The translations under genes were made by a program, and so were the position numbers. Below the pieces are notes generated by a model. That model had not been told where the DNA came from. It worked only from the letters and a program-made list of their open reading frames with translations, and made no database searches. Of a stretch of 64,000 nt of DNA, positions 3,255-64,000 are shown piece by piece. Location: NCBI GenBank assembly GCA_044356725.1, contig JBIKVS010000002.1, positions 19,264 through 83,263 of the forward strand, read 5' to 3'. The DNA comes from Minisyncoccia bacterium. Lineage in GTDB: Bacteria > Patescibacteriota > Minisyncoccia > SW-4-49-11. How positions within the stretch are numbered: the first letter of the stretch is position 1; the number at the start of each line of letters is the position of its first letter.

Positions 3255-3320
3255 ATATAGTATGAATTATTATGCCTATATTAGCATATATTAAGGGTTT
3301 TGTATAGGTGGGAGGGTATA

Positions 3321-3515
3321 ATTATGAATTATGAGTTGTTAATGATACTTATACAGGCTCATTATATTTTAGTCCTCCCTCCAAAGGGAGACAATATTTC
3401 AAGTTGCAAAATAATCCACCACCGGCACTTCGTGCCACCTCCTCCAAAGGAGGACAATATAATACAAAGTTCAGGCGACTAGTAGGTCGCCCCTCAACGA
3501 GGGGAATTTAATTCA
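3321..3515. repeat. Composite GC-rich palindromic repeat element, copy A. It is a member of a window-wide family.
   Basis: Contains gtcctccctccaaagggagacaa, ggcacttcgtgcc, cctcctccaaaggaggac, ggcgactagtaggtcgcc (3474-3491), and cccctcaacgaggggaat. It is preceded by an AT-rich attatgaattatgagttgtt segment. The same modules recur in copies B to J. Confidence 0.7.
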
Positions 3516-15399: not shown

Positions 15400-15443
15400 A
15401 GATTATTTATATTTTATATATTATATCATAAAAAAATATAAAT

Positions 15444-15658
15444 ATGAATTGTAGTTTGTGAATTGTCAATTATGAATGGTGAATGATGAATTGGTAGTTG
15501 TGCTTTTGTCTCCCTCCAACTACCTACGGCAGTTAAAAAGGGAGACGAAAATTAAGTATAGGCGACTGAAAGGTCGCACCTACTAAATTTAAGTATCGGT
15601 GAGAGCACCGACTCTACGGAATTCATAATTCACCACTCACAATTTATCATTAAAATTG
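15444..15658. repeat. Composite repeat element, copy B, with AT-rich inverted ends. It directly abuts the 3' end of tRNA-Arg.
   Basis: The left end atgaattgtagtttgtgaattgtcaattatgaatggtgaatgatgaatt and right end ggaattcataattcaccactcacaatttatcatt are inverted relative to each other. Internal modules are tgtctccctcc...aaagggagacg, ggcgactgaaaggtcgc (15561-15577), and atcggtgagagcaccgactctacgg. Confidence 0.7.
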
Positions 15659-26330: not shown

Positions 26331-26646
26331 TTAAAAAAATTATGAATTGTAGGTTGTGAATGGTAAATTGTGAGTTATGAATTATTAACTGTAGGGCTTT
26401 TGTAAAGAGATATTAGGAGGGGGCGACCTTTCAGTCGCCTGAATCCTCCTCCGTCACCTACGGTGCCACCTCCCCCAAGGGAGGACAGTTCTTATCTTGT
26501 CTCCCTTTGGAGGGCGACAGAGACGGAAACTCAAATCACAAAACACTCCACCCCGTCCAGCATAGCTGTCCACCCCTCAAGAGGGGAATTTTAATACAAA
26601 AGACCCTAAAATTCATAATTTACAATTCACAATTTATAATTAAAGC
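26331..26646. repeat. Composite repeat element, copy C. It is the largest copy, with long AT-rich terminal inverted repeats, and serves as the archetype.
   Basis: The left end ttatgaattgtaggttgtgaatggtaaattgtgagttatgaatt is the inverse of the right end aaattcataatttacaattcacaatttataatt. Internal modules are ggcgacctttcagtcgcc (26422-26439), cctcctccgtcacctacggtgccacctcc, cccccaagggagg, tctccctttggaggg, and cacccctcaagaggggaat. The right end abuts the stop of the pilin-like gene. Confidence 0.75.
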
Positions 26647-27816
26647 CTACAGCCCAAATCTACCTCTAGTTACATTGAAGTTTTGTTGGACTTCTTGTAG
26701 TGTTAGACCTTTTCCCTTATAAACTAAAATATTAGCAATATTACCTTGATGAATATATCCTCCACCCCCATATCTTCCTATATTGAAATTAGTTCCCCAT
26801 GTACCAATATTCCCTGAATCATTAGCACTATTTATTAAAACACCATTAGAATAAAACTTAGTACTACCTGATATCCTTGAGATTACAATATTATACCAAG
26901 TATTAATACTATGTGTTGGTCCAGAAGTATAAAGTACTCCTCTAACTCCTATAGTTGGATTATAATATCTAAATCCATTATTAATACTAGTTCCAGTTGA
27001 TAGAGTCCCTCCATTAGCACCAAAATCCCAAATGTATCTATTTGCAACTATTTCTGTTTTATATACCCAAGCAGCAACAGAGAAATCGCCAGTTCCTGGG
27101 GAGATATTATTGGAAACTATTACATAATCATTTATCCCATCAAAAATAAGAGAACCTCCATTAGCAATATTATACCCGACTCCATTGATGAGAGTTCCAT
27201 GATTATTTCCCCCACTCAAATCAAACCAAGTTGTACCAGATCCAGGATAACTAGCTGGAATACCTGCATCTAAATTCAATATTAGACCATCTGTCACGAT
27301 TGGTAACTTTGGCACAGTAGCTGCTAAAGGAGTATTGGCATTACTAGTTTCTACACTAGGTAGGGGGTCATTTATTTTAATATCCACACCTCCTTCTCTT
27401 AATGCTTCTTTTAATCTAATACTAACAGTACTGCTAGCTTCATCTACTGCTATCTCATAACCCGAGCCACCTATATTATCGGTGTCATTTGGATCCTGTG
27501 GTATAGCTTGGATAAAATCAGGGACTAGAGATGATTTTAAATCGATAAATCCTGTACAAGAAGTAGCATCTGGGTCACAAATTTCCTGATAATCTCGGGT
27601 AAGACCTGCTGGATAGCTTCCTTTTTGTAACTTATATTGGGTAATAGTGCTTTCTAAAGTTTGAATATGAGTCTTTCTAATATCATTACGAGCATCAATA
27701 AATCTAGCATCAGCATTAAAATTTACTAAACCAATAGTTAGCAATATACCTATTAGGGTAATTACTAATAATACTTCTATCAGAGTAAATCCTTTATTTA
27801 CATTTTTAGTTTTCAT
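26647..27816 (-). CDS. Type IV prepilin-like N-terminus protein with a C-terminal LamG/ConA-like lectin domain
   Basis: MKTKNVNKGFTLIEVLLVITLIGILL is a class III signal with a G/F cleavage site and a hydrophobic helix. The C-terminus GDFSVAAWVYKTE...FDGINDYV is LamG-like. Confidence 0.7.
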   Translation of the reverse strand: MKTKNVNKGFTLIEVLLVITLIGILLTIGLVNFNADARFIDARNDIRKTHIQTLESTITQYKLQKGSYPAGLTRDYQEICDPDATSCTGFIDLKSSLVPDFIQAIPQDPNDTDNIGGSGYEIAVDEASSTVSIRLKEALREGGVDIKINDPLPSVETSNANTPLAATVPKLPIVTDGLILNLDAGIPASYPGSGTTWFDLSGGNNHGTLINGVGYNIANGGSLIFDGINDYVIVSNNISPGTGDFSVAAWVYKTEIVANRYIWDFGANGGTLSTGTSINNGFRYYNPTIGVRGVLYTSGPTHSINTWYNIVISRISGSTKFYSNGVLINSANDSGNIGTWGTNFNIGRYGGGGYIHQGNIANILVYKGKGLTLQEVQQNFNVTRGRFGL

Positions 27817-32698: not shown

Positions 32699-32740
32699 AA
32701 AGTGATTTATATTTATATTTTTATTATATCATATAAATTT

Positions 32741-32960
32741 TTAATTATGAATGGTGGATAATTTAATTATGAATTGTAAGTTGTGAATTATGAATGGCGC
32801 TTCTGTCTCCCTTCGGAGGGAGTACCCGTAGGGGGAGGGAGGACTTCAGACAACACAAGATAACCCCCTCCTAAACTAAAGTATAGGAGGGGCTTAAGAA
32901 CAATGTCGGCGAGGGCGCCGACTCTACGAACTTACAATTTAGAATTCATAATTATATTAT
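32741..32960. repeat. Composite repeat element, copy D, with AT-rich inverted ends, in the divergent ruvA/prx promoter region
   Basis: Has aattatgaattgtaagttgtgaattatgaatgg and aacttacaatttagaattcataatt ends. Internal modules are ctgtctcccttcggagggagtacccgtagggggagggaggac and aacaatgtcggcgagggcgccgactctacgaa, the latter in inverted orientation relative to copies H and I. Confidence 0.7.
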
Positions 32961-36134: not shown

Positions 36135-36285
36135 TGTCCTCCTTTGGAGGAGGTGGCACGAAGTGCCGGAGGAGGACTAAGGCTGATGTTGTTGTTATAA
36201 AGTTTATTCTAATATTTTAGTATTTCAAGTATAGTCCTCCCTCCCCCTACGGGTACTCCCTCCAAAGGGAGACAAAATAAAGTTC
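36135..36285. repeat. Composite repeat element, copy E. It carries GC-rich modules only, with no AT-rich ends.
   Basis: gtcctcctttggaggaggtggcacgaagtgccggaggaggac is a nested palindrome. It is followed by gtcctccctccccctacgggtactccctccaaagggagacaaaataaa, the same module as in copies H and I. Confidence 0.7.
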
Positions 36286-40401: not shown

Positions 40402-42726
40402 ATGAAAATAAGAATTAATAAAGGTTTTTCACTCCTAGAAATACTCTTAGTAATAACATTATTGTCTATATTGTTTACTATATTAGTGGTGAGAATAAAT
40501 CCTCGAAATATAGTTTATATATCAGAAGACAATAAAAGAGAGGCTGATGCATTGACAATTTATCAAGCCTTAGAGCAATATGCTATCAAGAATAATGCCT
40601 ATCCAGAGAGTATAAAGAATATGCCTAATAATAGTTCAGCTTATATCTGTAAAACCTCCGCCCCAAATTGCCAAGCCCCAAAAATAAATTTATCTTCCAT
40701 ACTAGTACCAACATATTTCTCTAAAATTCCAGAATATTCTACAGATAATACTAATAGTGGGTTTTATGTAATTAAAGATATTAATGGTAAAATTGGAGTT
40801 GGAGGAGTAAGACAATTAGACGAGACGACCTTTGTCAAAGGATTGGAGAGTCAAAGTTTTGCGACGATTCCAAATCAACCATCAAAGTTAGCTGTAACCT
40901 CCTGTACATATGCGAATAAAAAAATAAGTATACCCTATACAGCAGGAGAAGTAGGCTATAATTATGCTAGTCAAACAATTAACTCCACGGGAGTAACCGG
41001 ATTAACAGCAACATTATTAGGAGATGAACCTCTCGCAACAGGAGGCACCGTCATAGATAGTGGAGGTTTCCGCTATCACGTCTTTACGAGTAGCGGAACA
41101 TTTAATGTAACAACTACCAACCAGATGACTGTTGTTCTTGTCGGCGGTGGGGGTGGCGGTGGTGGTGGACACGCTAATGCAGGTGCAGGTGCAGGTGCGG
41201 GCGGTAAACTTGTCACACTTGCTGAATCTATTCCATCAGGCTCATTTAACATTGTTATCGGTGACGCCGGAGGCGGAGGAGCAAATGGTGTCGCCGGGAA
41301 TAACGGCCAAGCGTCAACAGGATTCAGTTATACGGCTACCGGTGGACAGGGCGGAGGATCGGGTTGGATCGGAGATTCACGAAATGGCCAAGGTGGGACT
41401 ACGGGTGGTTCTGCGGGTGGGGCCAGTGGTCTTGCAGGAAGCCAAGGTGGTGCAAACGGTGGCGGATGGGATGACGGAGCAGAGGTTCTTAATTCGTTTA
41501 TCGGCAACGGTGCCGGCGGAGCAGATGTAGGTGGTACTTATTCTGGTGGAGGCGGCGGAGGTGGTGTTACGGTATCACTTTCCAGTGTGGCGGCGATAAA
41601 TGGCACCATAGGTTCAAATGCGGTCAAGTACTACACAGAAAATGCAGGCCCTGGCGGAGCTGGGTATGGGGCTGGCGGTGGAGGTGCATCTGGACCGAAT
41701 GCCGGGGGTGCAGGAGCAAAAGGGATTGTCATAGTGAGGTATCAATTAGCAACAGGAGGTAACTTAGCTACCAGTGGACTTCTAGAATATACAGTCACAG
41801 GGACTCCTAGTGGAGTAGGAACCGCTAATTTTGATCTTAGCAATATTGGTAATATGGGAGTTGGTTGTAATAATAGTAATATAGCGGTTAATGTGACAGG
41901 AACTCTCGCAACAGGAGGAGATACTACAACAGATATAACAGTAGGAGCCGATACATATAGAGTACACACATTTACAACCGTCGGTACATCTAGTTTGAAT
42001 GTAACACAAGGTGGAGAGTTTGAATATCTAGTAGTTGGTGGAGGCGGTGCTGGAGGTCCTACATATCATGGCGCCGGGGGAGGAGCAGGGGGATATCGTT
42101 CTTCAGTGATAGGAGAAATGTCTGGTGGAGGAAGTATGGCAGAGCCAAGTTTAACTATAAATAGTGGATCCTATCAAGTTACGGTTGGAGCTGGTGGAAT
42201 TGGAGGAGTGAATAATGGTAATGGCGTAAATTCAACATTTTCTAATATAATAGCACTAGGTGGTGGAGGCGGTAATGGCAGAACTGGAGGATCAGGGTCA
42301 GGTACTTCTTACGGTTCCTCAGGTGTTAGTGTTGGTTTAGGAACTGCTAGCCAAGGATATAATGGTGGTACGGGACTTATGACATCTGCTGCACCTAATT
42401 ATGGCTCAGGTGGTGGTGGTGGTGCCGGAGGAGTAGGCCAAACAGGGACATCTACTTCTGGTGGAAATGGAGGTATAGGTTTAACCTCATCAATTAATGG
42501 GACTCCGATGACACGTGCAGGTGGTGGTGGTGGATCTACATATAATGGGGGCTCCCCAGGACAAGGTATTGCTGGCGGTGGAAATGGAAGTAACGGACAA
42601 GGTACATCTGCAGCATTAAACTCTGGAAGTGGAGGTGGAGGATCTGAACGATCTGCTGGAATAATTCAAGGTGGCTCCGGTGGTTCCGGCATCGTAATCG
42701 TGAGGTATAAGTTATTTGACTATTGA
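40402..42726 (+). CDS. Large secreted protein with a type IV prepilin-like N-terminus and an extremely Gly-rich repetitive body
   Basis: MKIRINKGFSLLEILLVITLLSILFTIL is a prepilin leader plus hydrophobic helix. Long runs follow such as GGGGGGGGHANAGAGAGAGG, with recurring GxGGxG blocks. It is 774 aa. Confidence 0.7.
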   Translation: MKIRINKGFSLLEILLVITLLSILFTILVVRINPRNIVYISEDNKREADALTIYQALEQYAIKNNAYPESIKNMPNNSSAYICKTSAPNCQAPKINLSSILVPTYFSKIPEYSTDNTNSGFYVIKDINGKIGVGGVRQLDETTFVKGLESQSFATIPNQPSKLAVTSCTYANKKISIPYTAGEVGYNYASQTINSTGVTGLTATLLGDEPLATGGTVIDSGGFRYHVFTSSGTFNVTTTNQMTVVLVGGGGGGGGGHANAGAGAGAGGKLVTLAESIPSGSFNIVIGDAGGGGANGVAGNNGQASTGFSYTATGGQGGGSGWIGDSRNGQGGTTGGSAGGASGLAGSQGGANGGGWDDGAEVLNSFIGNGAGGADVGGTYSGGGGGGGVTVSLSSVAAINGTIGSNAVKYYTENAGPGGAGYGAGGGGASGPNAGGAGAKGIVIVRYQLATGGNLATSGLLEYTVTGTPSGVGTANFDLSNIGNMGVGCNNSNIAVNVTGTLATGGDTTTDITVGADTYRVHTFTTVGTSSLNVTQGGEFEYLVVGGGGAGGPTYHGAGGGAGGYRSSVIGEMSGGGSMAEPSLTINSGSYQVTVGAGGIGGVNNGNGVNSTFSNIIALGGGGGNGRTGGSGSGTSYGSSGVSVGLGTASQGYNGGTGLMTSAAPNYGSGGGGGAGGVGQTGTSTSGGNGGIGLTSSINGTPMTRAGGGGGSTYNGGSPGQGIAGGGNGSNGQGTSAALNSGSGGGGSERSAGIIQGGSGGSGIVIVRYKLFDY

Positions 42727-42790: not shown

Positions 42791-42845
42791 GAGTTCCTGG
42801 ACTCCTTGATGGGAGGTGGAACCGTAGGTGTCGTAAGAGTGCAGA
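42791..42845. repeat. Degenerate single-module copy (J) of the repeat family
   Basis: cctggactccttgatgggaggtggaaccgtaggtgtcg resembles the module cctcccttgggggaggtggcaccgtaggtgacgg of copies H and I. Confidence 0.4.
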
Positions 42846-49956: not shown

Positions 49957-50088
49957 GTATGAATGGTGAGTTGTGAGTTCCGTAGGGGCGACCTTACAGT
50001 CGCCTGAGTCCTCCCTACATTAGAGTAATGTCGGCGAGTACATCGACTCTACAAAATTCATAATTTATAATTCACAATTTATAATTAT
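49957..50088. repeat. Composite repeat element, copy F, with AT-rich inverted ends
   Basis: Left end agtatgaatggtgagttgtgagtt. Internal modules are ggcgaccttacagtcgcc (49987-50004) and taatgtcggcgagtacatcgactctaca. The right end aaaattcataatttataattcacaatttataatt abuts the ileS stop codon. Confidence 0.7.
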
Positions 50089-59694: not shown

Positions 59695-59815
59695 AAATTC
59701 CCCTCTTGAGGGGTGGATTCCTGCTATGTTTACATAGTAGGGAGACGGGGTGGAATAAAATATCAAAACAACACTCCACCCCACCCTGCGGGTACCCCTC
59801 AAGAGGGGAATTTAA
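59695..59815. repeat. Composite repeat element, copy G, in the divergent ispA/valS promoter region
   Basis: aattcccctcttgaggggtgg and gtacccctcaagaggggaattta are inverted copies of the CCCCTC-AAG-AGGGG hairpin module. Between them lies gggagacggggtggaat...ctccaccccaccctgcgggtac. Confidence 0.65.
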
Positions 59816-62327: not shown

Positions 62328-62340
62328 CGATAATTATAAA

Positions 62341-62573
62341 TGTTGAGTTGTGAATTTCATAGCGGAGCCGTCCCTATGGGAGTTAAACGTTTATCCCTCC
62401 ATATCGTAGAGTCGGTGCCCTCGCCGACATTGTTCTAATGTAGGGTAGACCTTTCAGTAGCCTATGTCCTCCCTCCCCCTGCGGGTACTCCCTCCAAAGG
62501 GAGACAAAATAAAAACTATCCTCCCTTGGGGGAGGTGGCACCGTAGGTGACGGAGGAGGACTATTGTATAAAA
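62341..62573. repeat. Composite repeat element, copy H, upstream-flanking the tRNA pair. It is a near-identical direct repeat of copy I.
   Basis: cgtagagtcggtgccctcgccgacattgttcta ... gtagacctttcagtagcc ... gtcctccctccccctgcgggtactccctccaaagggagacaaaataaaaactatcctcccttgggggaggtggcaccgtaggtgacggaggaggact. It is about 95 percent identical to 62905-63063 over about 165 bp. Confidence 0.8.
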
Positions 62574-62661
62574 GTCATAACTAAAAATTTTTAAACGAAG
62601 AAAACACCGGTCATTGACCAGTGCTCATAGATTGAATTAAAGAGGGAAATCCCTAGTAAAA

Positions 62662-62732
62662 TCGAAGCGGCAGGATTTGAACCTACGACCCCCTGCATGT
62701 GCAGGTGCGCTACCAGACTGCGCTACGCCCCG
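62662..62732 (-). tRNA. tRNA-like gene with an atypical 4-nt anticodon loop (ACAT). It may be a tRNA-Met(CAT) variant or a pseudogene.
   Basis: The minus-strand sequence is CGGGGCG-TA-GCGC-AGTCTGGTA-GCGC-A-CCTGC-ACAT-GCAGG-GGGTC-GTAGG-TTCAAAT-CCTGC-CGCTTCG-A. The acceptor (with two G:U pairs), D-arm, variable loop, and T-arm are canonical. It is 71 nt instead of about 74, and the shortfall is entirely in the anticodon loop. Confidence 0.5.
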
Positions 62733-62741
62733 ATGGAGAAA

Positions 62742-62817
62742 CGGTGAGTGGTGGATTCGAACCCCTGAAACTTATCACGAATTGAGACAAGTAGCTCCCA
62801 AGAGCAACTACCCCACC
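62742..62817 (-). tRNA. tRNA-like gene with a canonical acceptor and TTCGAAT T-loop but non-canonical D and anticodon arms. The anticodon is unresolved.
   Basis: The minus-strand sequence is GGTGGGG-TAGTTGCTCTTGGGAGCTAC-TTGTCTCAATTCGTGATAAG-TTTC-AGGGG-TTCGAAT-CCACC-ACTCACC-G. The acceptor pairs 6/7. The D region folds as GTTGCTC-TTGG-GAGCTAC with a 4-nt loop. The anticodon region folds as ACTTGTC-(9 nt)-GATAAGT. It lies 9 nt from the previous tRNA-like gene. Confidence 0.4.
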
Positions 62818-62883
62818 ATAATCCGTATATTATTATACTTATATTTTCTTAATTGTCAAGAGTTGAGGCGGTACAATTATAGA

Positions 62884-63063
62884 TTATGAATTATTAATGA
62901 TAAATTCGTAGAGTCGGTGCCCTCGCCGACATTGTTCTAGTGTAGGGGCGACCTTTCAGTCGCCTGTGTCCTCCCTCCCCCTGCGGGGACTCCCTCCAAA
63001 GGGAGACAAAATAAAAACTGTCCTCCCTTGGGGGAGGTGGCACCGTAGGTGACGGAGGAGGAC
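62884..63063. repeat. Composite repeat element, copy I, downstream-flanking the tRNA pair
   Basis: cgtagagtcggtgccctcgccgacattgttctag ... ggcgacctttcagtcgcc (62947-62964) ... gtcctccctccccctgcggggactccctccaaagggagacaaaataaaaactgtcctcccttgggggaggtggcaccgtaggtgacggaggaggact. Confidence 0.8.
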
Positions 63064-63088
63064 TGAGCTAAATTTACCCTATCCCCAC

Positions 63089-64000
63089 CTACCTATACAA
63101 ATACTTCTGAAATTCTATGAATAAATCTCGAATAGACTCAACCCCACCCAAATTCTGTTGAGCCTCTGCCAGAGAATGATATTTATTCTGTAATAAAATA
63201 GCTAATCTATCCTGATCCAATTCCTCGAATCCAGATTGAATATATTTATCCAACACAAATTGCAAAAATTGCTTCTGAGACTCACTTAAATCATCTAAAA
63301 TATCCTGCTTGGATTGCAAAACTCTCATTTCCCTTGAAATTGGTTTATTCTCAGCATTAAAGACATATTCCAAAACATCAAACAAATCACTATTCTCCGC
63401 ATCCACTAATTTTTGTAAAGTTTTCAGCTTATCTTGACTAAACCCAGCTTGACCTAATTTTTCCAAAAGCTGTTTACGAGTAATTGGACTACCCCAAATA
63501 GCCCTTAATTCCTGCTCTGTGGTGAATAATTTTGGCAATTCCCCAAATAAATTATGCATAAATTCTTCCACTGAAACCGGTCTTCCTTGAGCATCCCAAA
63601 AAGAAGTCGAGACCATAGACTGAATTTCCCTAATTTTACCATCTCTTAATTTCACTTTAATCTTTTTATTCTCACCTACTATAGGAGGAATTGTAGCTCC
63701 AGTTGGAGGATATACTTTAGTCCCAGAATCTCCCACAGGACTTACAGACCCATCTTCTATAACTCCACCTTCCCACTTTGGATCCGCAAACAACCGATAA
63801 GCCTCCACAAAATCATAAATAGTAAAGAAATCCTTACCCTCAAAGACTCTCGTGCCCCTACCAATAATTTGTTTGAACTCAATCATAGAATTAATCGGTC
63901 GCATCAAGACAATATTCCTGACATTACGAGCATCCACCCCAGTAGATAATTTTTGAGAAGTAGTCAAAATAGTTGGGATAGTCTTCTCGTTATCCTGAAA
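63089..64000 (-). CDS. Type I restriction enzyme R subunit (HsdR)-like helicase, C-terminal about 300 aa. The N-terminus lies beyond the window end.
   Basis: The reading frame stays open to position 64000 (FQDNEKTIPTILTTSQKLSTGVDARNVRNIVLMRPINSMIEFKQIIGRGTRV). Helicase motif VI is QIIGRGTR, and the C-terminal helical domain is typical of Type I HsdR. A Type III Res subunit is the alternative. Confidence 0.55.
   Translation of the reverse strand, partial: FQDNEKTIPTILTTSQKLSTGVDARNVRNIVLMRPINSMIEFKQIIGRGTRVFEGKDFFTIYDFVEAYRLFADPKWEGGVIEDGSVSPVGDSGTKVYPPTGATIPPIVGENKKIKVKLRDGKIREIQSMVSTSFWDAQGRPVSVEEFMHNLFGELPKLFTTEQELRAIWGSPITRKQLLEKLGQAGFSQDKLKTLQKLVDAENSDLFDVLEYVFNAENKPISREMRVLQSKQDILDDLSESQKQFLQFVLDKYIQSGFEELDQDRLAILLQNKYHSLAEAQQNLGGVESIRDLFIEFQKYLYR

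What the first reader, a model, noticed from the sequence alone, without database searches (positions are those of the whole stretch)
26331..26646. Family of modular GC-rich palindromic repeat cassettes bounded by AT-rich inverted repeats, at least 10 intergenic copies in 64 kb
In an AT-rich genome, ten intergenic sites carry combinations of the same few GC-rich hairpin modules. Approximate coordinates are A 3321-3515, B 15444-15658, C 26331-26646, D 32741-32960, E 36135-36285, F 49957-50088, G 59695-59815, H 62341-62573, I 62884-63063, and J 42791-42845.

The modules are:
- M1: GGCGAC-N6-GTCGCC. Loops are tgaaag, ctttca, cttaca, or tagtag, and it occurs in both orientations.
- M2: TTCGTAGAGTCGGTGCCCTCGCCGACATTGTT.
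- M3: GTCCTCCCTCC(CCCTGCGGGTAC)TCCCTCCAAAGGGAGACAA.
- M4: CCTCCCTTGGGGGAGGTGGCACCGTAGGTGACGGAGGAGGAC.
- M5: CCCCTC-AAG-AGGGG-AAT.

In most copies the modules are bracketed by AT-rich terminal inverted repeats built from TGTGAATT/AATTCACA and ATGAATT units. For example, copy C begins ttatgaattgtaggttgtgaatggtaaattgtgagttatgaatt and ends aaattcataatttacaattcacaatttataatt. This is MITE/REP/BIME-like architecture.

The modules are shuffled and inverted between copies, which argues for a mobile or recombining element rather than one conserved RNA gene. The copies sit in every intergenic context: between tandem genes, between convergent genes, in divergent promoter regions, abutting a tRNA 3' end, and abutting stop codons. 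No transposase is present in the window.

They could be non-autonomous MITEs, REP-like elements serving a RAYT encoded elsewhere, structured terminator or insulator RNAs, or an undescribed structured-RNA family.
Basis: seen in the sequence. Interest (0 to 1): 0.75.

Follow-up and report, generated by a model that had tools for sequence, protein, structure and literature searches.

The report
REP/BIME-like palindrome mosaics in a Paceibacteria genome
The GC-rich hairpin cassettes are real and are best read as clusters of REP-type repeats, the short palindromes moved by a RAYT tyrosine transposase, here in a tiny-genome candidate-phyla-radiation bacterium, with one repeat unit also present almost unchanged in Bacteroidota.

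Summary
Nine of the 17 intergenic gaps of 100 nt or more carry the same GC-rich hairpin modules, and a tenth holds a decayed copy. Shuffled sequence gives about zero matches.

The window comes from a freshwater Paceibacteria/Minisyncoccia (CPR) genome of about 34.6% GC.

- **M1, M2 and a new module M8** are canonical GTAG-tagged REPs.
- **M3 and M4** are one two-hairpin unit in opposite orientations, forming REPIN-like inverted doublets.
- **M5 and a further module M6** appear to share that layout.
- **The AT-rich "inverted repeats"** are period-7 arrays. They lie next to the GTAG foot, and their outermost unit supplies a -35 box for the neighbouring gene.

Strains 87-95% identical carry different module sets at the same sites. 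Orientation relative to flanking genes is random.

Related metagenome contigs encode a RAYT-like Y1 transposase. It is flanked by M1 on both sides and has an in-frame M1 inside the gene. No RAYT lies in the window or within 10 kb of either end.

The two-hairpin unit also occurs nearly letter for letter in Bacteroidota. Its only database neighbour is a sub-threshold match to Rfam whalefall-1.

Verdict: a REP/BIME/RAYT system, apparently undescribed in CPR, with unusual features. Interest is moderate.

The parts
3321..3515 (.). Cassette A, upstream of the SpoU methylase gene. It holds a heptamer array (3320-3350), a short M3 hairpin (3372-3392), a two-hairpin unit on the minus strand (3414-3455), M1 fused to a short M5 (3472-3508).
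   Evidence: Model R1 scores 55 bits at 3414-3455. Orthologous sites in L040 and L068 keep the M5-M1-M4 order but swap the promoter-proximal module.
15439..15657 (.). Cassette B. It holds a left heptamer array (15439-15493, 7 units), an M3 variant with a 17-nt insertion in its loop (15508-15546), M1 on the minus strand with its GTAG foot (15561-15583), M2 on the minus strand (15595-15617), and a right heptamer arm abutting the 3' end of tRNA-Arg.
26337..26383 (-). Cassette C, left heptamer array. Read on the minus strand, its outermost unit gives the -35 box TTCATA. The -10 TATAAT preceded by TG lies 17 nt further on, upstream of the rpe gene.
   Evidence: TRF. Promoter scan (minus strand, 26346 to 26318, 10 of 12 matches). 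In ortholog L083 a single heptamer lies directly next to the GTAG of M1.
26420..26439 (+). Cassette C, M1 REP hairpin GGGGCGAC-CTTTCA-GTCGCC. The foot is degenerate here (TTAGGAGG).
26443..26486 (-). It consists of hp1 CCUCCC-UUGG-GGGAGG, hp2 GGCACC-GUA-GGUGAC and a tail GGAGGAGGAU.
   Evidence: Model R1 scores 59.1 bits, E 1.7e-17. Consensus structure.
26499..26592 (.). Cassette C, a degenerate M3 hairpin (26499-26514) and the extended M5 unit. The M5 unit reads CCACCCC, a small CAGC-AUA-GCUG hairpin, then CCACCCCUC-AAG-AGGGG, with its core at 26573-26589.
26610..26641 (+). Cassette C, right arm AATTCATAATTTACAATTCACAATTTATAATT. It is an outward-facing promoter-like sequence that points antisense into the 3' end of the pilin-like gene.
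32732..32957 (.). Cassette D, in a divergent promoter region between ruvA and ahpC. It holds a left heptamer array (32732-32795, 9 units), a long M3-type unit (32805-32844), M2 on the minus strand (32905-32927) and a right arm. Each arm supplies TTCATA, then 17 nt, then TGnTATAAT for the gene beside it.
   Evidence: R1 scores 31.2 bits.
36136..36273 (.). Cassette E, two two-hairpin units in inverted, tail-to-tail arrangement (36136-36177 plus strand, 36234-36273 minus strand). There are no arms.
   Evidence: R1 scores 66 and 34.8 bits..
42791..42845 (+). Site J, a decayed copy of the two-hairpin unit. By eye it matches M4 at about 24 of 26 central positions.
   Evidence: Not detected by R1 at E <= 1.
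49960..50086 (.). Cassette F, a head-to-head REP dimer with both GTAG feet pointing outwards. It holds left heptamers, M1 (GTAG at 49981, hairpin to 50004), M2 on the minus strand (50030-50052) and the right arm (50055-50086).
   Evidence: It is identical in L006 and L007 except for one missing heptamer in L007. Its core is replaced by other modules in L021.
59695..59815 (.). Cassette G, an inverted pair of M5-type units (cores at 59697-59713 minus strand and 59795-59811 plus strand), upstream of the ValRS promoter.
   Evidence: It is identical in L006, replaced by M3/M4-type modules in L009, and almost empty in L007.
62341..62561 (+). Cassette H, downstream of ValRS. It holds heptamers, M8 with an internal insertion (62359-62400), M2 (62406-62428), a degenerate M1, a long M3-type unit on the minus strand (62466-62505) and the M4 unit (62518-62561).
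   Evidence: A 158-nt block running from the CGTAG of M2 to GGAC is 95.6% identical to cassette I and has sharp ends.
62875..63063 (+). Cassette I. It holds heptamers (62875-62906), M2 (62908-62930), M1 with its GTAG foot (62941-62964), a long M3-type unit on the minus strand (62968-63007) and the M4 unit (63020-63063). The M3 and M4 units lie head to head, 12 nt apart.
   Evidence: As single-stranded DNA it folds into one long imperfect hairpin with z = -4.44.

Best explanation
The cassettes are REP clusters, that is BIME-like mosaics, of a Paceibacteria (candidate phyla radiation) genome.

**Two classes of building block**
1. GTAG-tagged REP hairpins. M1 has the consensus tTC-GTAG-G-GGCGAC-CTTTCA-GTCGCC-TG. 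M2 has CGTAG-A-GTCGGYG-CCCT-CRCCGAC. M8 is the third type.
2. A roughly 42-nt two-hairpin unit. It has hp1 CCUCCY-UUGG-RGGAGG, a freely varying hp2, and a G-rich tail GGAGGAGGAC. It usually sits as an inverted doublet (M3 plus M4) and can fold into one long hairpin, as REPINs do.

**Proposed mechanism** (inferred by analogy with E. coli TnpA-REP and IS200/IS605, not shown here)
- A single-copy RAYT, an HUH Y1 tyrosine transposase, binds the hairpin on single-stranded DNA.
- It reads the GTAG foot and cleaves and rejoins there.
- REPs, and whatever lies between two of them, are then copied, lost or exchanged at the few intergenic sites where they are tolerated.
- Recombination between the many near-identical copies adds further shuffling.

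**Shown:** the repeat family, its hairpin constraints, strain-to-strain turnover, random orientation, and a RAYT flanked by M1 in related genomes.

**Inferred:**
- that a RAYT is encoded in this genome;
- that the RAYT mobilises the untagged two-hairpin units;
- that the heptamer arrays next to the GTAG feet are by-products of this activity or of slippage.

**Likely side effects on the host:**
- The outermost heptamer provides a -35 box for adjacent genes.
- The GC-rich hairpins probably block transcript read-through or degradation in either orientation.
For: 1. **The repeats are real and non-random**.

2. **M1 has the REP signature.** About 80 non-redundant M1 copies occur in 741 kb of related DNA. 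Almost all carry GTAG immediately 5' of a 6-bp GC stem whose bottom is three G-C pairs. M2 and M8 have the same foot. These are the features that define GTAG REPs in PMC3733652 and PMC6006769.

3. **A RAYT is associated with M1.**
   - Contig L100 encodes a 174-aa protein that matches Pfam Y1_Tnp at 33 bits against a cutoff of 23.
   - It matches NCBIfam "REP-associated tyrosine transposase" at 70.7 bits, against 27 bits for IS200 transposase.
   - For its 87%-identical homologue P0010, the only PDB match is E. coli TnpA-REP, entry 4er8.
   - Its motifs are NHIH, WQ and YIDENP.
   - M1 lies 25-50 nt upstream of the start codon and again just after the stop codon in L100, L130, L131 and L137. 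An in-frame M1 lies inside the gene between the HUH and Tyr motifs. PMC6006769 describes that last feature as unique to RAYT subclass 2.4.
   - The RAYT occupies at least two different loci. It is absent from the same tRNA-flanked site in relatives about 92% identical across the flanking gene.

4. **Module content turns over.** Strains 95%, 91%, 87% and about 84% identical in flanking genes carry the same, partly swapped or wholly different module sets at sites A, C, F, G and H.

5. **Copies are recent.** H and I share a 158-nt block at 95.6% identity. The block starts exactly at the GTAG foot.

6. **The hairpins are constrained.**
   - In 44 distinct M4 sequences, the hp1 pair at columns 8-13 is C-G in 22 and U-A in 22, with none broken. 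The hp2 pairs show many changes on both sides.
   - A model built only from M4 finds the long M3 copies on the opposite strand at E 1e-9 to 4e-8.
   - It finds 162 units in 586 kb of related loci.

7. **There is no orientation bias relative to flanking genes.** M1 is sense in 9 cases and antisense in 8. M4 is sense in 13 and antisense in 14.

8. **Assemblies break inside the cassettes**.
Against: - No RAYT is present in the window or within 10 kb of either end. I could not read the rest of this genome.
- The RAYT-bearing contigs are related Paceibacteria. They are not shown to be the same species as the window.
- The two-hairpin units, which make up much of the cassettes, have no GTAG foot. 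They are not seen flanking any RAYT.
- The RAYT is flanked by M1 in direct orientation, not inverted.
- The NCBIfam score falls just below the curated cutoff (70-78 bits against 80).
- No clean empty-versus-filled site with exact boundaries was found for a single module. Most differences between strains are replacements, which recombination alone could produce.
- Near-identical modules in different species and phyla are unusual for REPs, which are normally species-specific.
Confidence: 0.7

Rival explanations
1. The modules, above all the two-hairpin unit, are genes or cis-elements for a structured RNA. On this reading they belong to a whalefall-1-like small-RNA family present in many copies, and the hairpins are conserved because the RNA acts as such, for example by binding the ribosome or a protein through its GGAGG/CCUCC segments.
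For: - Covariation is perfect in hp1, and hp2 shows many compensatory changes.
- The U19-G37 pair is U-G in all 44 sequences. Variable pairs show eight G-U wobbles against three C-A or A-C mismatches on the M4 strand.
- There are weak matches to Rfam RF01762 whalefall-1 with the same layout (25 bits, E 4e-4). Its authors rated that motif as certainly an RNA.
- The unit is conserved across phyla.
Against: - Orientation relative to neighbouring genes is random.
- The unit usually occurs as inverted doublets, so both strands carry it.
- Content differs between close strains at the same site.
- No promoter or terminator is consistently attached to the unit.
- The whalefall-1 score is below the gathering threshold (25 bits against 37), and the matches did not appear at E <= 0.05 in a larger search of related loci.
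- Hairpin covariation is equally expected for REPs recognised as single-stranded DNA.
Confidence: 0.12
2. The cassettes are host regulatory architecture kept by selection. Stable GC hairpins would terminate or insulate transcription and protect mRNA 3' ends in an AT-rich genome, and the heptamer arrays would be promoter upstream elements. Similarity between sites would come from gene conversion, not transposition.
For: - The outermost heptamer supplies TTCATA 17 nt from TGnTATAAT at C and at both sides of D. By eye the same arrangement holds at B and F.
- The cassettes sit exactly between the upstream gene's stop codon and the next promoter.
- Sites A and F stay occupied across relatives 79-88% identical.
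- The hairpins fold stably on either strand.
Against: - Only M5, in one orientation, resembles an intrinsic terminator with a T-tract.
- Arms also point antisense into the 3' ends of genes and of a tRNA (C right, F right, B right).
- Site G is nearly empty in L007, with the same ValRS promoter.
- About half of the long intergenic gaps have no cassette.
- The GTAG feet and the M1-flanked RAYT are not explained by this reading.
- This reading is compatible with secondary co-option of REPs, so it is not fully exclusive of the best explanation.
Confidence: 0.1
3. They are classical MITEs, that is deletion derivatives of a DDE-type insertion sequence, with the AT-rich arms as terminal inverted repeats.
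For: - Inverted AT-rich arms bracket B, C, D and F.
- The size range of 130-320 nt fits.
- They lie in intergenic DNA.
Against: - The arms are tandem heptamers whose number varies.
- E, G and J have no arms, and H and I have only one.
- I saw no target-site duplication at the ends of C, F, H or I.
- The internal content is not one sequence but shuffled modules.
- No recurring transposase-like protein family appears in 387 kb of related loci.
Confidence: 0.03

Closest known systems
GTAG-tagged REPs with their RAYT (REPtrons), especially RAYT subclass 2.4 / Bertels group 4 (PMC3733652, PMC6006769)
   Same: - M1, M2 and M8 are GC-rich hairpins of about 23 nt with GTAG at the foot. The bottom of the M1 stem is three G-C pairs.
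- They are multi-copy and intergenic, and occur as single copies, head-to-head dimers or clusters.
- The associated protein has NHIH, WQ and YIxxNP motifs.
- The protein carries an in-frame REP between the HUH and Tyr motifs.
   Different: - The host is a candidate-phyla-radiation bacterium with a streamlined genome. In my searches of the paper library, none of the papers I inspected describes REPs or RAYTs in that group.
- The RAYT is flanked by M1 in direct orientation.
- The REP sequence is conserved across many species.
- Heptamer arrays adjoin the feet.
- The Tyr motif is YIDENP rather than YIxNNP.
BIMEs of E. coli and REPINs of Pseudomonas
   Same: - The cassettes are mosaics of a few palindromic unit types in alternating orientation, joined by recurring linkers. 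Two linker types recur between M3 and M4.
- Inverted doublets fold into one long hairpin.
   Different: - There are more unit types per cluster. At least six are mixed at one site.
- The commonest unit has two hairpins plus a single-stranded G-rich tail and no GTAG foot.
- The clusters are bracketed by AT-rich heptamer arrays that double as -35 boxes.
Rfam RF01762 whalefall-1 RNA motif (Weinberg et al. 2010, PMC2864571)
   Same: The layout and part of the sequence agree. The Rfam consensus reads hairpin CuCuCC-UuGG-GGaGaG, a second variable hairpin, then the tail AGgGuGAGGAC. The unit here reads CCUCCY-UUGG-RGGAGG, hp2, then GGAGGAGGAC.
   Different: - The scores are 17-25 bits against a gathering score of 37, so the unit is not a member by Rfam's criterion.
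- The model's second hairpin is skipped in the alignment.
- Whalefall-1 is known only from whale-fall metagenomes and was interpreted as a free-standing non-coding RNA, not as a repeat.
GC clusters of yeast mitochondrial DNA and Rickettsia palindromic elements
   Same: Both are short GC-rich palindromes that spread through AT-rich, compact genomes and can nest inside one another. This comparison rests on my own knowledge; PMC4478555 was listed but I did not read it.
   Different: There is no sequence relationship, the hosts differ, and no RAYT-type enzyme is known for them. This is an analogy only.

Membership tests
GTAG-tagged REP | Short (about 20-40 nt) GC-rich imperfect palindrome | tested here: met
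   M1 is a 6-bp stem with a 6-nt loop. M2 is a 7-bp stem with a 4-nt loop.
GTAG-tagged REP | GT[AG]G tetranucleotide 0-2 nt 5' of the hairpin foot | tested here: met
   GTAG directly precedes nearly all of the roughly 80 M1 copies, all 21 M2 copies and all 14 M8 copies. A few copies in the window are degenerate: C has TTAGGAGG and A has TTGAGG.
GTAG-tagged REP | Many copies per genome, mostly intergenic, often as dimers or clusters | tested here: met
   Five M1 and five M2 copies occur in 64 kb, all intergenic. F is a head-to-head dimer. The whole-genome copy number could not be measured.
REPtron (REP plus cognate RAYT) | A RAYT gene in the same genome, flanked by the same REP | not testable with these tools
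   - In related contigs (L100, L130, L131, L137) a RAYT-like gene is flanked by M1.
- In the window and within 10 kb of either end there is none.
- The rest of this genome could not be read.
RAYT subclass 2.4 | HUH motif NH[IFV]H, WQ motif, Tyr motif YIxNNP | tested here: inconclusive
   NHIH and WQ are present. The Tyr motif is YIDENP or YIDQNP, which differs at one position. Motif definitions come from PMC6006769. I built no phylogeny.
RAYT subclass 2.4 | REP inserted in frame inside the RAYT gene between the HUH and Tyr motifs | tested here: met
   The sequence CAGGCGAC-ATAAG-GTCGCC-CCTAC lies inside the gene and encodes ...NTGDIRSPLRE... It is conserved in P0009-P0012.
NCBIfam NF047646 REP-associated tyrosine transposase | Score at or above the curated cutoff of 80 bits | tested here: not met
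   The five proteins score 69-78 bits. This is the best-scoring family for each and far above IS200 transposase at 24-33 bits.
BIME / REPIN | Two copies of one palindromic unit in inverted orientation that can fold into one long hairpin | tested here: met
   - The long M3 and M4 are the same unit on opposite strands, 12 nt apart in H and I.
- They fold together with z = -4.44.
- G is an inverted M5 pair.
- In Bacteroides sp. 519 the same unit forms inverted pairs.
Rfam RF01762 whalefall-1 | Covariance-model score at or above the gathering score of 37 bits | tested here: not met
   The best score is 25 bits, E 4e-4, in an 800-nt search. There were no hits at gathering threshold in the window or in the Bacteroidota loci.
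Classical MITE | Terminal inverted repeats, fixed-length target-site duplication, related autonomous transposon | tested here: not met
   - The arms are variable heptamer arrays and are absent from E, G and J.
- I saw no duplication at the cassette ends by eye.
- No recurring transposase-like family appears in the related loci.
Intrinsic terminator | GC hairpin followed by a T-tract, oriented with the upstream gene | tested here: not met
   Each scanned cassette has one terminator-like site: M5 on the plus strand in C, and M2 followed by a T-rich tail in D. Module orientation is random relative to genes.

The most novel reading that the evidence does not exclude
The two-hairpin unit (hp1 CCUCCY-UUGG-RGGAGG, variable hp2, tail GGAGGAGGAC) may not be just another REP. 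It could be a distinct, horizontally spreading element or functional module with these properties:
- It is shared by Paceibacteria and Bacteroidota.
- It is the true identity of the orphan Rfam motif whalefall-1.
- It is recognised by something other than the GTAG-reading RAYT. Candidates are a subclass 2.6-type Y1 enzyme, or the ribosome through its masked perfect Shine-Dalgarno sequence GGAGGUG.

In the same reading, the heptamer arrays of GTRRRTT units would be footprints left by repeated cleavage and rejoining at GTRG-like feet.
Probability: 0.15. Interest if true: 0.7.

Novelty: new variant of a known kind. Interest (0 to 1): 0.5.

Why it matters
Candidate-phyla-radiation bacteria have very small, tightly packed genomes and are usually described as poor in mobile DNA.

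- **Burden on the genome.** About a quarter of the intergenic DNA in this 64-kb stretch is REP-type repeat mosaic. This DNA turns over between strains and supplies promoter -35 boxes.
- **Effect on assembly and annotation.** The repeats break metagenome assemblies at the same places. They also generate spurious ORFs that recur between genomes. Both affect how these genomes are binned and annotated.
- **Strain markers.** The modules can distinguish strains in lake time series.
- **Cross-phylum sharing.** The two-hairpin unit shared with Bacteroidota hints at horizontal transfer of a REP system between very distant bacteria.
- **An orphan Rfam family.** The results offer a testable origin for an Rfam motif known only from one metagenome.

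Tried and rejected
- **Rfam.** At gathering threshold, the window and 18 Bacteroidota loci gave only tRNAs and one FopS small RNA. At E-value threshold the cassettes gave only chance-level microRNA or snoRNA hits and the weak whalefall-1 matches. Those did not appear at E <= 0.05 in a 62-kb search of related loci.
- **Crude HUH...Y regular expressions** on all ORFs found nothing. They were too strict to be informative.
- **RAYT searches of the first 75 loci.** phmmer with E. coli RayT found nothing. The RAYT appeared only after the metagenome scan with the M1 23-mer.
- **Clustering ORFs** from 387 kb of related loci found no protein family that travels with the cassettes.
- **Viral contigs** contain neither M4 nor M1 as exact matches, so I found no evidence for a phage vector.
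- **Literature search** for the module sequences themselves returned nothing.
- **Triple helix.** I considered a structure with two pyrimidine strands and one purine strand. I rejected it because the two pyrimidine strands run in the same direction, so they compete for Watson-Crick pairing.
- **Target-site duplication.** I considered the repeated strand that flanks hp2 as a possible duplication. This is unresolved, because the C/G variant of hp1 no longer matches the tail.
- **Looking for a RAYT beyond the window ends.** The gene tables of the 99.5-kb contig show none within 10 kb.
Full report
**What the window is**

The 64-kb window is 34.6% GC, gene-dense and mostly transcribed from one strand. 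Its genes include pilin-like N_methyl proteins, transketolase, rpe, rpiB and several tRNA synthetases.

Identical copies occur in several freshwater metagenomes. One is sample 3300035666; the title of a genome assembly (JBIKWJ01) carries the same sample number and the label "ME2015-09-13", which I take to mean Lake Mendota.

The nearest species representatives in the genome collection are MAGs labelled Minisyncoccia, Paceibacteria or Parcubacteria. They are 79-88% identical over shared genes. The host is therefore a member of the candidate phyla radiation.

Yes. All ten sites read as described. Self-BLAST places the window's main repeated DNA at them; a few short weak matches lie elsewhere.

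| Module | Hits in window | Expected from shuffles |
|---|---|---|
| M1 | 5 | 0.01 |
| M3 core | 6 | 0 |
| M5 | 3 | 0 |
| M2 | 5 sites | 0.01 |
| 32-nt right arm | 2 | 0 |

Nine of the 17 intergenic gaps of 100 nt or more are occupied, and J makes a tenth. The sites sum to 1,818 nt, about a quarter of the intergenic DNA.

Tandem Repeats Finder shows that the AT-rich arms are period-7/14 arrays. E, G and J lack arms. J is a decayed copy.

**Anatomy: the GTAG-tagged hairpins**

When M1 is collected from 741 kb of related DNA, nearly every copy reads tTC-GTAG-G-GGCGAC-CTTTCA-GTCGCC-TG. M2 has the consensus CGTAG-A-GTCGGYG-CCCT-CRCCGAC. A further module, M8 (GTAG-C-GGAGGG-TTTAT-CCCTCC), has the same foot.

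A GT[AG]G tetranucleotide at the foot of a short GC-rich hairpin is the defining feature of GTAG REPs (PMC3733652; PMC6006769).

F is a head-to-head dimer of M1 and M2, with both feet pointing outwards.

**Anatomy: the two-hairpin unit**

- **Consensus structure.** RNAalifold on 44 distinct M4 sequences gives two adjacent hairpins followed by an unpaired G-rich tail.
- **Covariation.** The last pair of hp1 is C-G in 22 sequences and U-A in 22, with none broken. The hp2 pairs show many changes on both sides.
- **M3 is the same unit.** A covariance model built only from M4 (R1) finds the five M4 copies in the window at 55-66 bits. It also finds four long M3 copies on the opposite strand at 31-36 bits, E 1e-9 to 4e-8. 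M3 and M4 are therefore one unit in inverted orientation.
- **Arrangement.** In H and I the two lie head to head, 12 nt apart. As single-stranded DNA they fold into one long imperfect hairpin with z = -4.44. That is the REPIN arrangement.
- **Related modules.** By eye, M5 and M6 have the same layout of hairpin, variable hairpin and repeated strand. G is an inverted M5 pair.
- **Abundance.** R1 finds 162 units in 586 kb of related loci. In some, hp2 is expanded to several tens of nucleotides.

**The arms**

The heptamers (GTRRRTT on one side, AATTCAY on the other) lie directly 5' of the GTAG foot in 11 of 21 M2 copies and in some M1 copies. Their number varies between strains.

At C and at both sides of D, the outermost unit provides TTCATA 17 nt from TGnTATAAT in front of the neighbouring gene. 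By eye the same holds at B and F.

Equally good arms also point antisense into the 3' ends of genes and of tRNA-Arg. They therefore belong to the cassette, not to the host promoter. What produces them is not explained.

**Behaviour between strains**

| Locus | Identity to window | What it carries |
|---|---|---|
| L001-L005 | 100% | Identical sequence |
| L006 | 95% | The same cassettes at F, G, H and I, with SNPs and one linker swap |
| L009/L010 | 91% | A different module set at G and H, and no tRNA pair between H and I |
| L007 | 87% | F retained minus one heptamer, G almost empty, other modules at H |
| L021 | 84-88% over the flanking genes | F core replaced |
| L083 | 84% | C core replaced, with M1 directly against the first heptamer |
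| L040, L068 | 88%, 79% | Site A keeps the order M5-M1-M4 but swaps the promoter-proximal module |

Within the window, H and I share a 158-nt block at 95.6% identity. It begins exactly at the CGTAG of M2 and ends at GGAC.

Module orientation relative to flanking genes is random. M1 is sense in 9 cases and antisense in 8. M4 is sense in 13 and antisense in 14.

**The enzyme**

A metagenome scan with the M1 23-mer returned 53 loci. One of them, L100, encodes a 174-aa protein.

- It matches E. coli RayT at E 9e-5.
- It matches Pfam Y1_Tnp at 33 bits against a cutoff of 23.
- It matches NCBIfam "REP-associated tyrosine transposase" at 70.7 bits against a cutoff of 80, compared with 27 bits for IS200 transposase.
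- For its 87%-identical homologue P0010, the only PDB match is TnpA-REP, entry 4er8.

Homologues at 56-96% identity exist. In L100, L130, L131 and L137 the gene has M1 25-50 nt upstream of its start codon and M1 again just after its stop codon, both in the gene's orientation. An M1 also lies in frame inside the gene, between the NHIH and YIDENP motifs.

An in-frame REP inside the gene, NH[IFV]H, WQ, and REP stems that start with three G-C pairs are the published hallmarks of RAYT subclass 2.4. That subclass is common in Cyanobacteria and Bacteroidetes and is patchily distributed.

The RAYT occupies two different loci: ligA-murG in L100 and L130, and a tRNA-flanked site in L131 and L137. At the second site, relatives about 92% identical across the flanking gene have no RAYT, and other relatives have only cassettes there.

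No RAYT lies in the window or within 10 kb of either end. The rest of this genome could not be read.

**Distribution beyond the CPR**

The M4 pattern has 27 specified bases and a free hp2. It matched 65 stretches in species-representative genomes:
- many Paceibacteria/Parcubacteria MAGs;
- Bacteroides sp. 214 and 519, and a Bacteroides MAG;
- Lewinella cohaerens;
- a Chitinophaga MAG;
- Bacteroidetes UBA2475;
- a low-GC MAG labelled Hyphomicrobiales.

In Bacteroides sp. 519 the unit forms inverted pairs inside a palindromic element of about 200 nt. In the Chitinophaga MAG the M3-linker-M4 doublet is present. Some 40-mers differ by only 1-2 nt between phyla.

Viral contigs contain no exact match.

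**Known families**

No Rfam family reaches its threshold. The only meaningful neighbour is RF01762 whalefall-1, with 25 bits against a gathering score of 37. Its consensus has the same hairpin, a variable second hairpin and a similar tail. It was described from whale-fall metagenomes only and judged to be a non-coding RNA.

In my searches of the paper library, the papers I inspected do not describe REPs or RAYTs in candidate-phyla-radiation bacteria, and none holds the module sequences.

**Conclusion**

The cassettes are REP clusters of the BIME/REPIN kind.

- **Shown:** the family is real, its hairpins are constrained, its content turns over between strains, it has no preferred orientation, and M1 is the REP of a RAYT in related genomes.
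- **Inferred:** this genome encodes such a RAYT, the RAYT or recombination moves the untagged two-hairpin units, and the hairpins and heptamers have been co-opted as transcript barriers and -35 boxes.
- **Unexpected for a REP system:** the cross-phylum conservation of the two-hairpin unit, and the heptamer arrays. These remain unexplained.

Noticed in passing
window 62661-62733 (-) and 62735-62822 (-); L007 12406-12568 (-): One tRNA-like gene folds as a cloverleaf, but its anticodon arm is a 5-bp stem with only a 4-nt loop (ACAU). ARAGORN reports "tRNA-??? (ca)". In the 87% relative L007 the stem has changed on both sides and the loop has 3 nt. A second tRNA-like sequence directly beside it is called by neither ARAGORN nor Rfam. 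The pair lies between cassettes H and I and is missing in L009/L010.
   Followed up: partly
window 40402-42726 (+): The 774-aa protein with an N-terminal methylation motif and a Gly_rich_2 domain is encoded by DNA of about 50% GC in a 34.6% GC window. It is the only long GC-rich stretch that is not a cassette.
   Followed up: no
L002 (ends at window 26571), L010 (starts at site G), L134 (ends 106 nt after ValRS): Independent metagenome assemblies of this population break inside the cassettes, so the repeats limit the contiguity of these genomes.
   Followed up: partly
window 62328-64000; L006 12.4-22.4 kb; L009 8.5-11.7 kb; L007 12.1-22 kb: The DNA downstream of ValRS is a strain-variable island. 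It holds type I restriction-modification genes and Fic here and in L006, HTH/SocA_Panacea genes in L009, and carotenoid genes in L007. In L006 at least six cassettes lie among the restriction-modification genes.
   Followed up: partly
window 26416-26720 (+), clustering with ORFs in L029 and L031: The GC-rich cassettes create open reading frames of about 100 aa that recur between genomes. Gene callers could annotate them as conserved hypothetical proteins.
   Followed up: no
L100 11249-11771 (-); L130 4001-4516; L131 881-1387; L137 523-1029: The RAYT-like gene of related Paceibacteria carries an in-frame M1 hairpin that encodes ...TGDIRSPL... It is flanked by M1 in direct rather than inverted orientation. 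It is present or absent at the same tRNA-flanked site in relatives about 92% identical across the flanking gene.
   Followed up: yes
L015, L037, L053, L064 (MAG labelled Hyphomicrobiales, 32-37% GC): These contigs carry the two-hairpin unit together with their own REP, which has a GTAG-like foot at one end and CTAC at the other (for example GCAGAGACAAGGCATGCCTTGTCTCTAC). Their GC content seems too low for Hyphomicrobiales, so the taxonomic label is probably wrong.
   Followed up: no
beyond the window start (gene table of the 99.5-kb contig): An MmeI-family restriction-modification gene (906 aa) lies directly next to the SpoU methylase gene, just outside the window. This is a second restriction system near cassette-rich DNA.
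   Followed up: no
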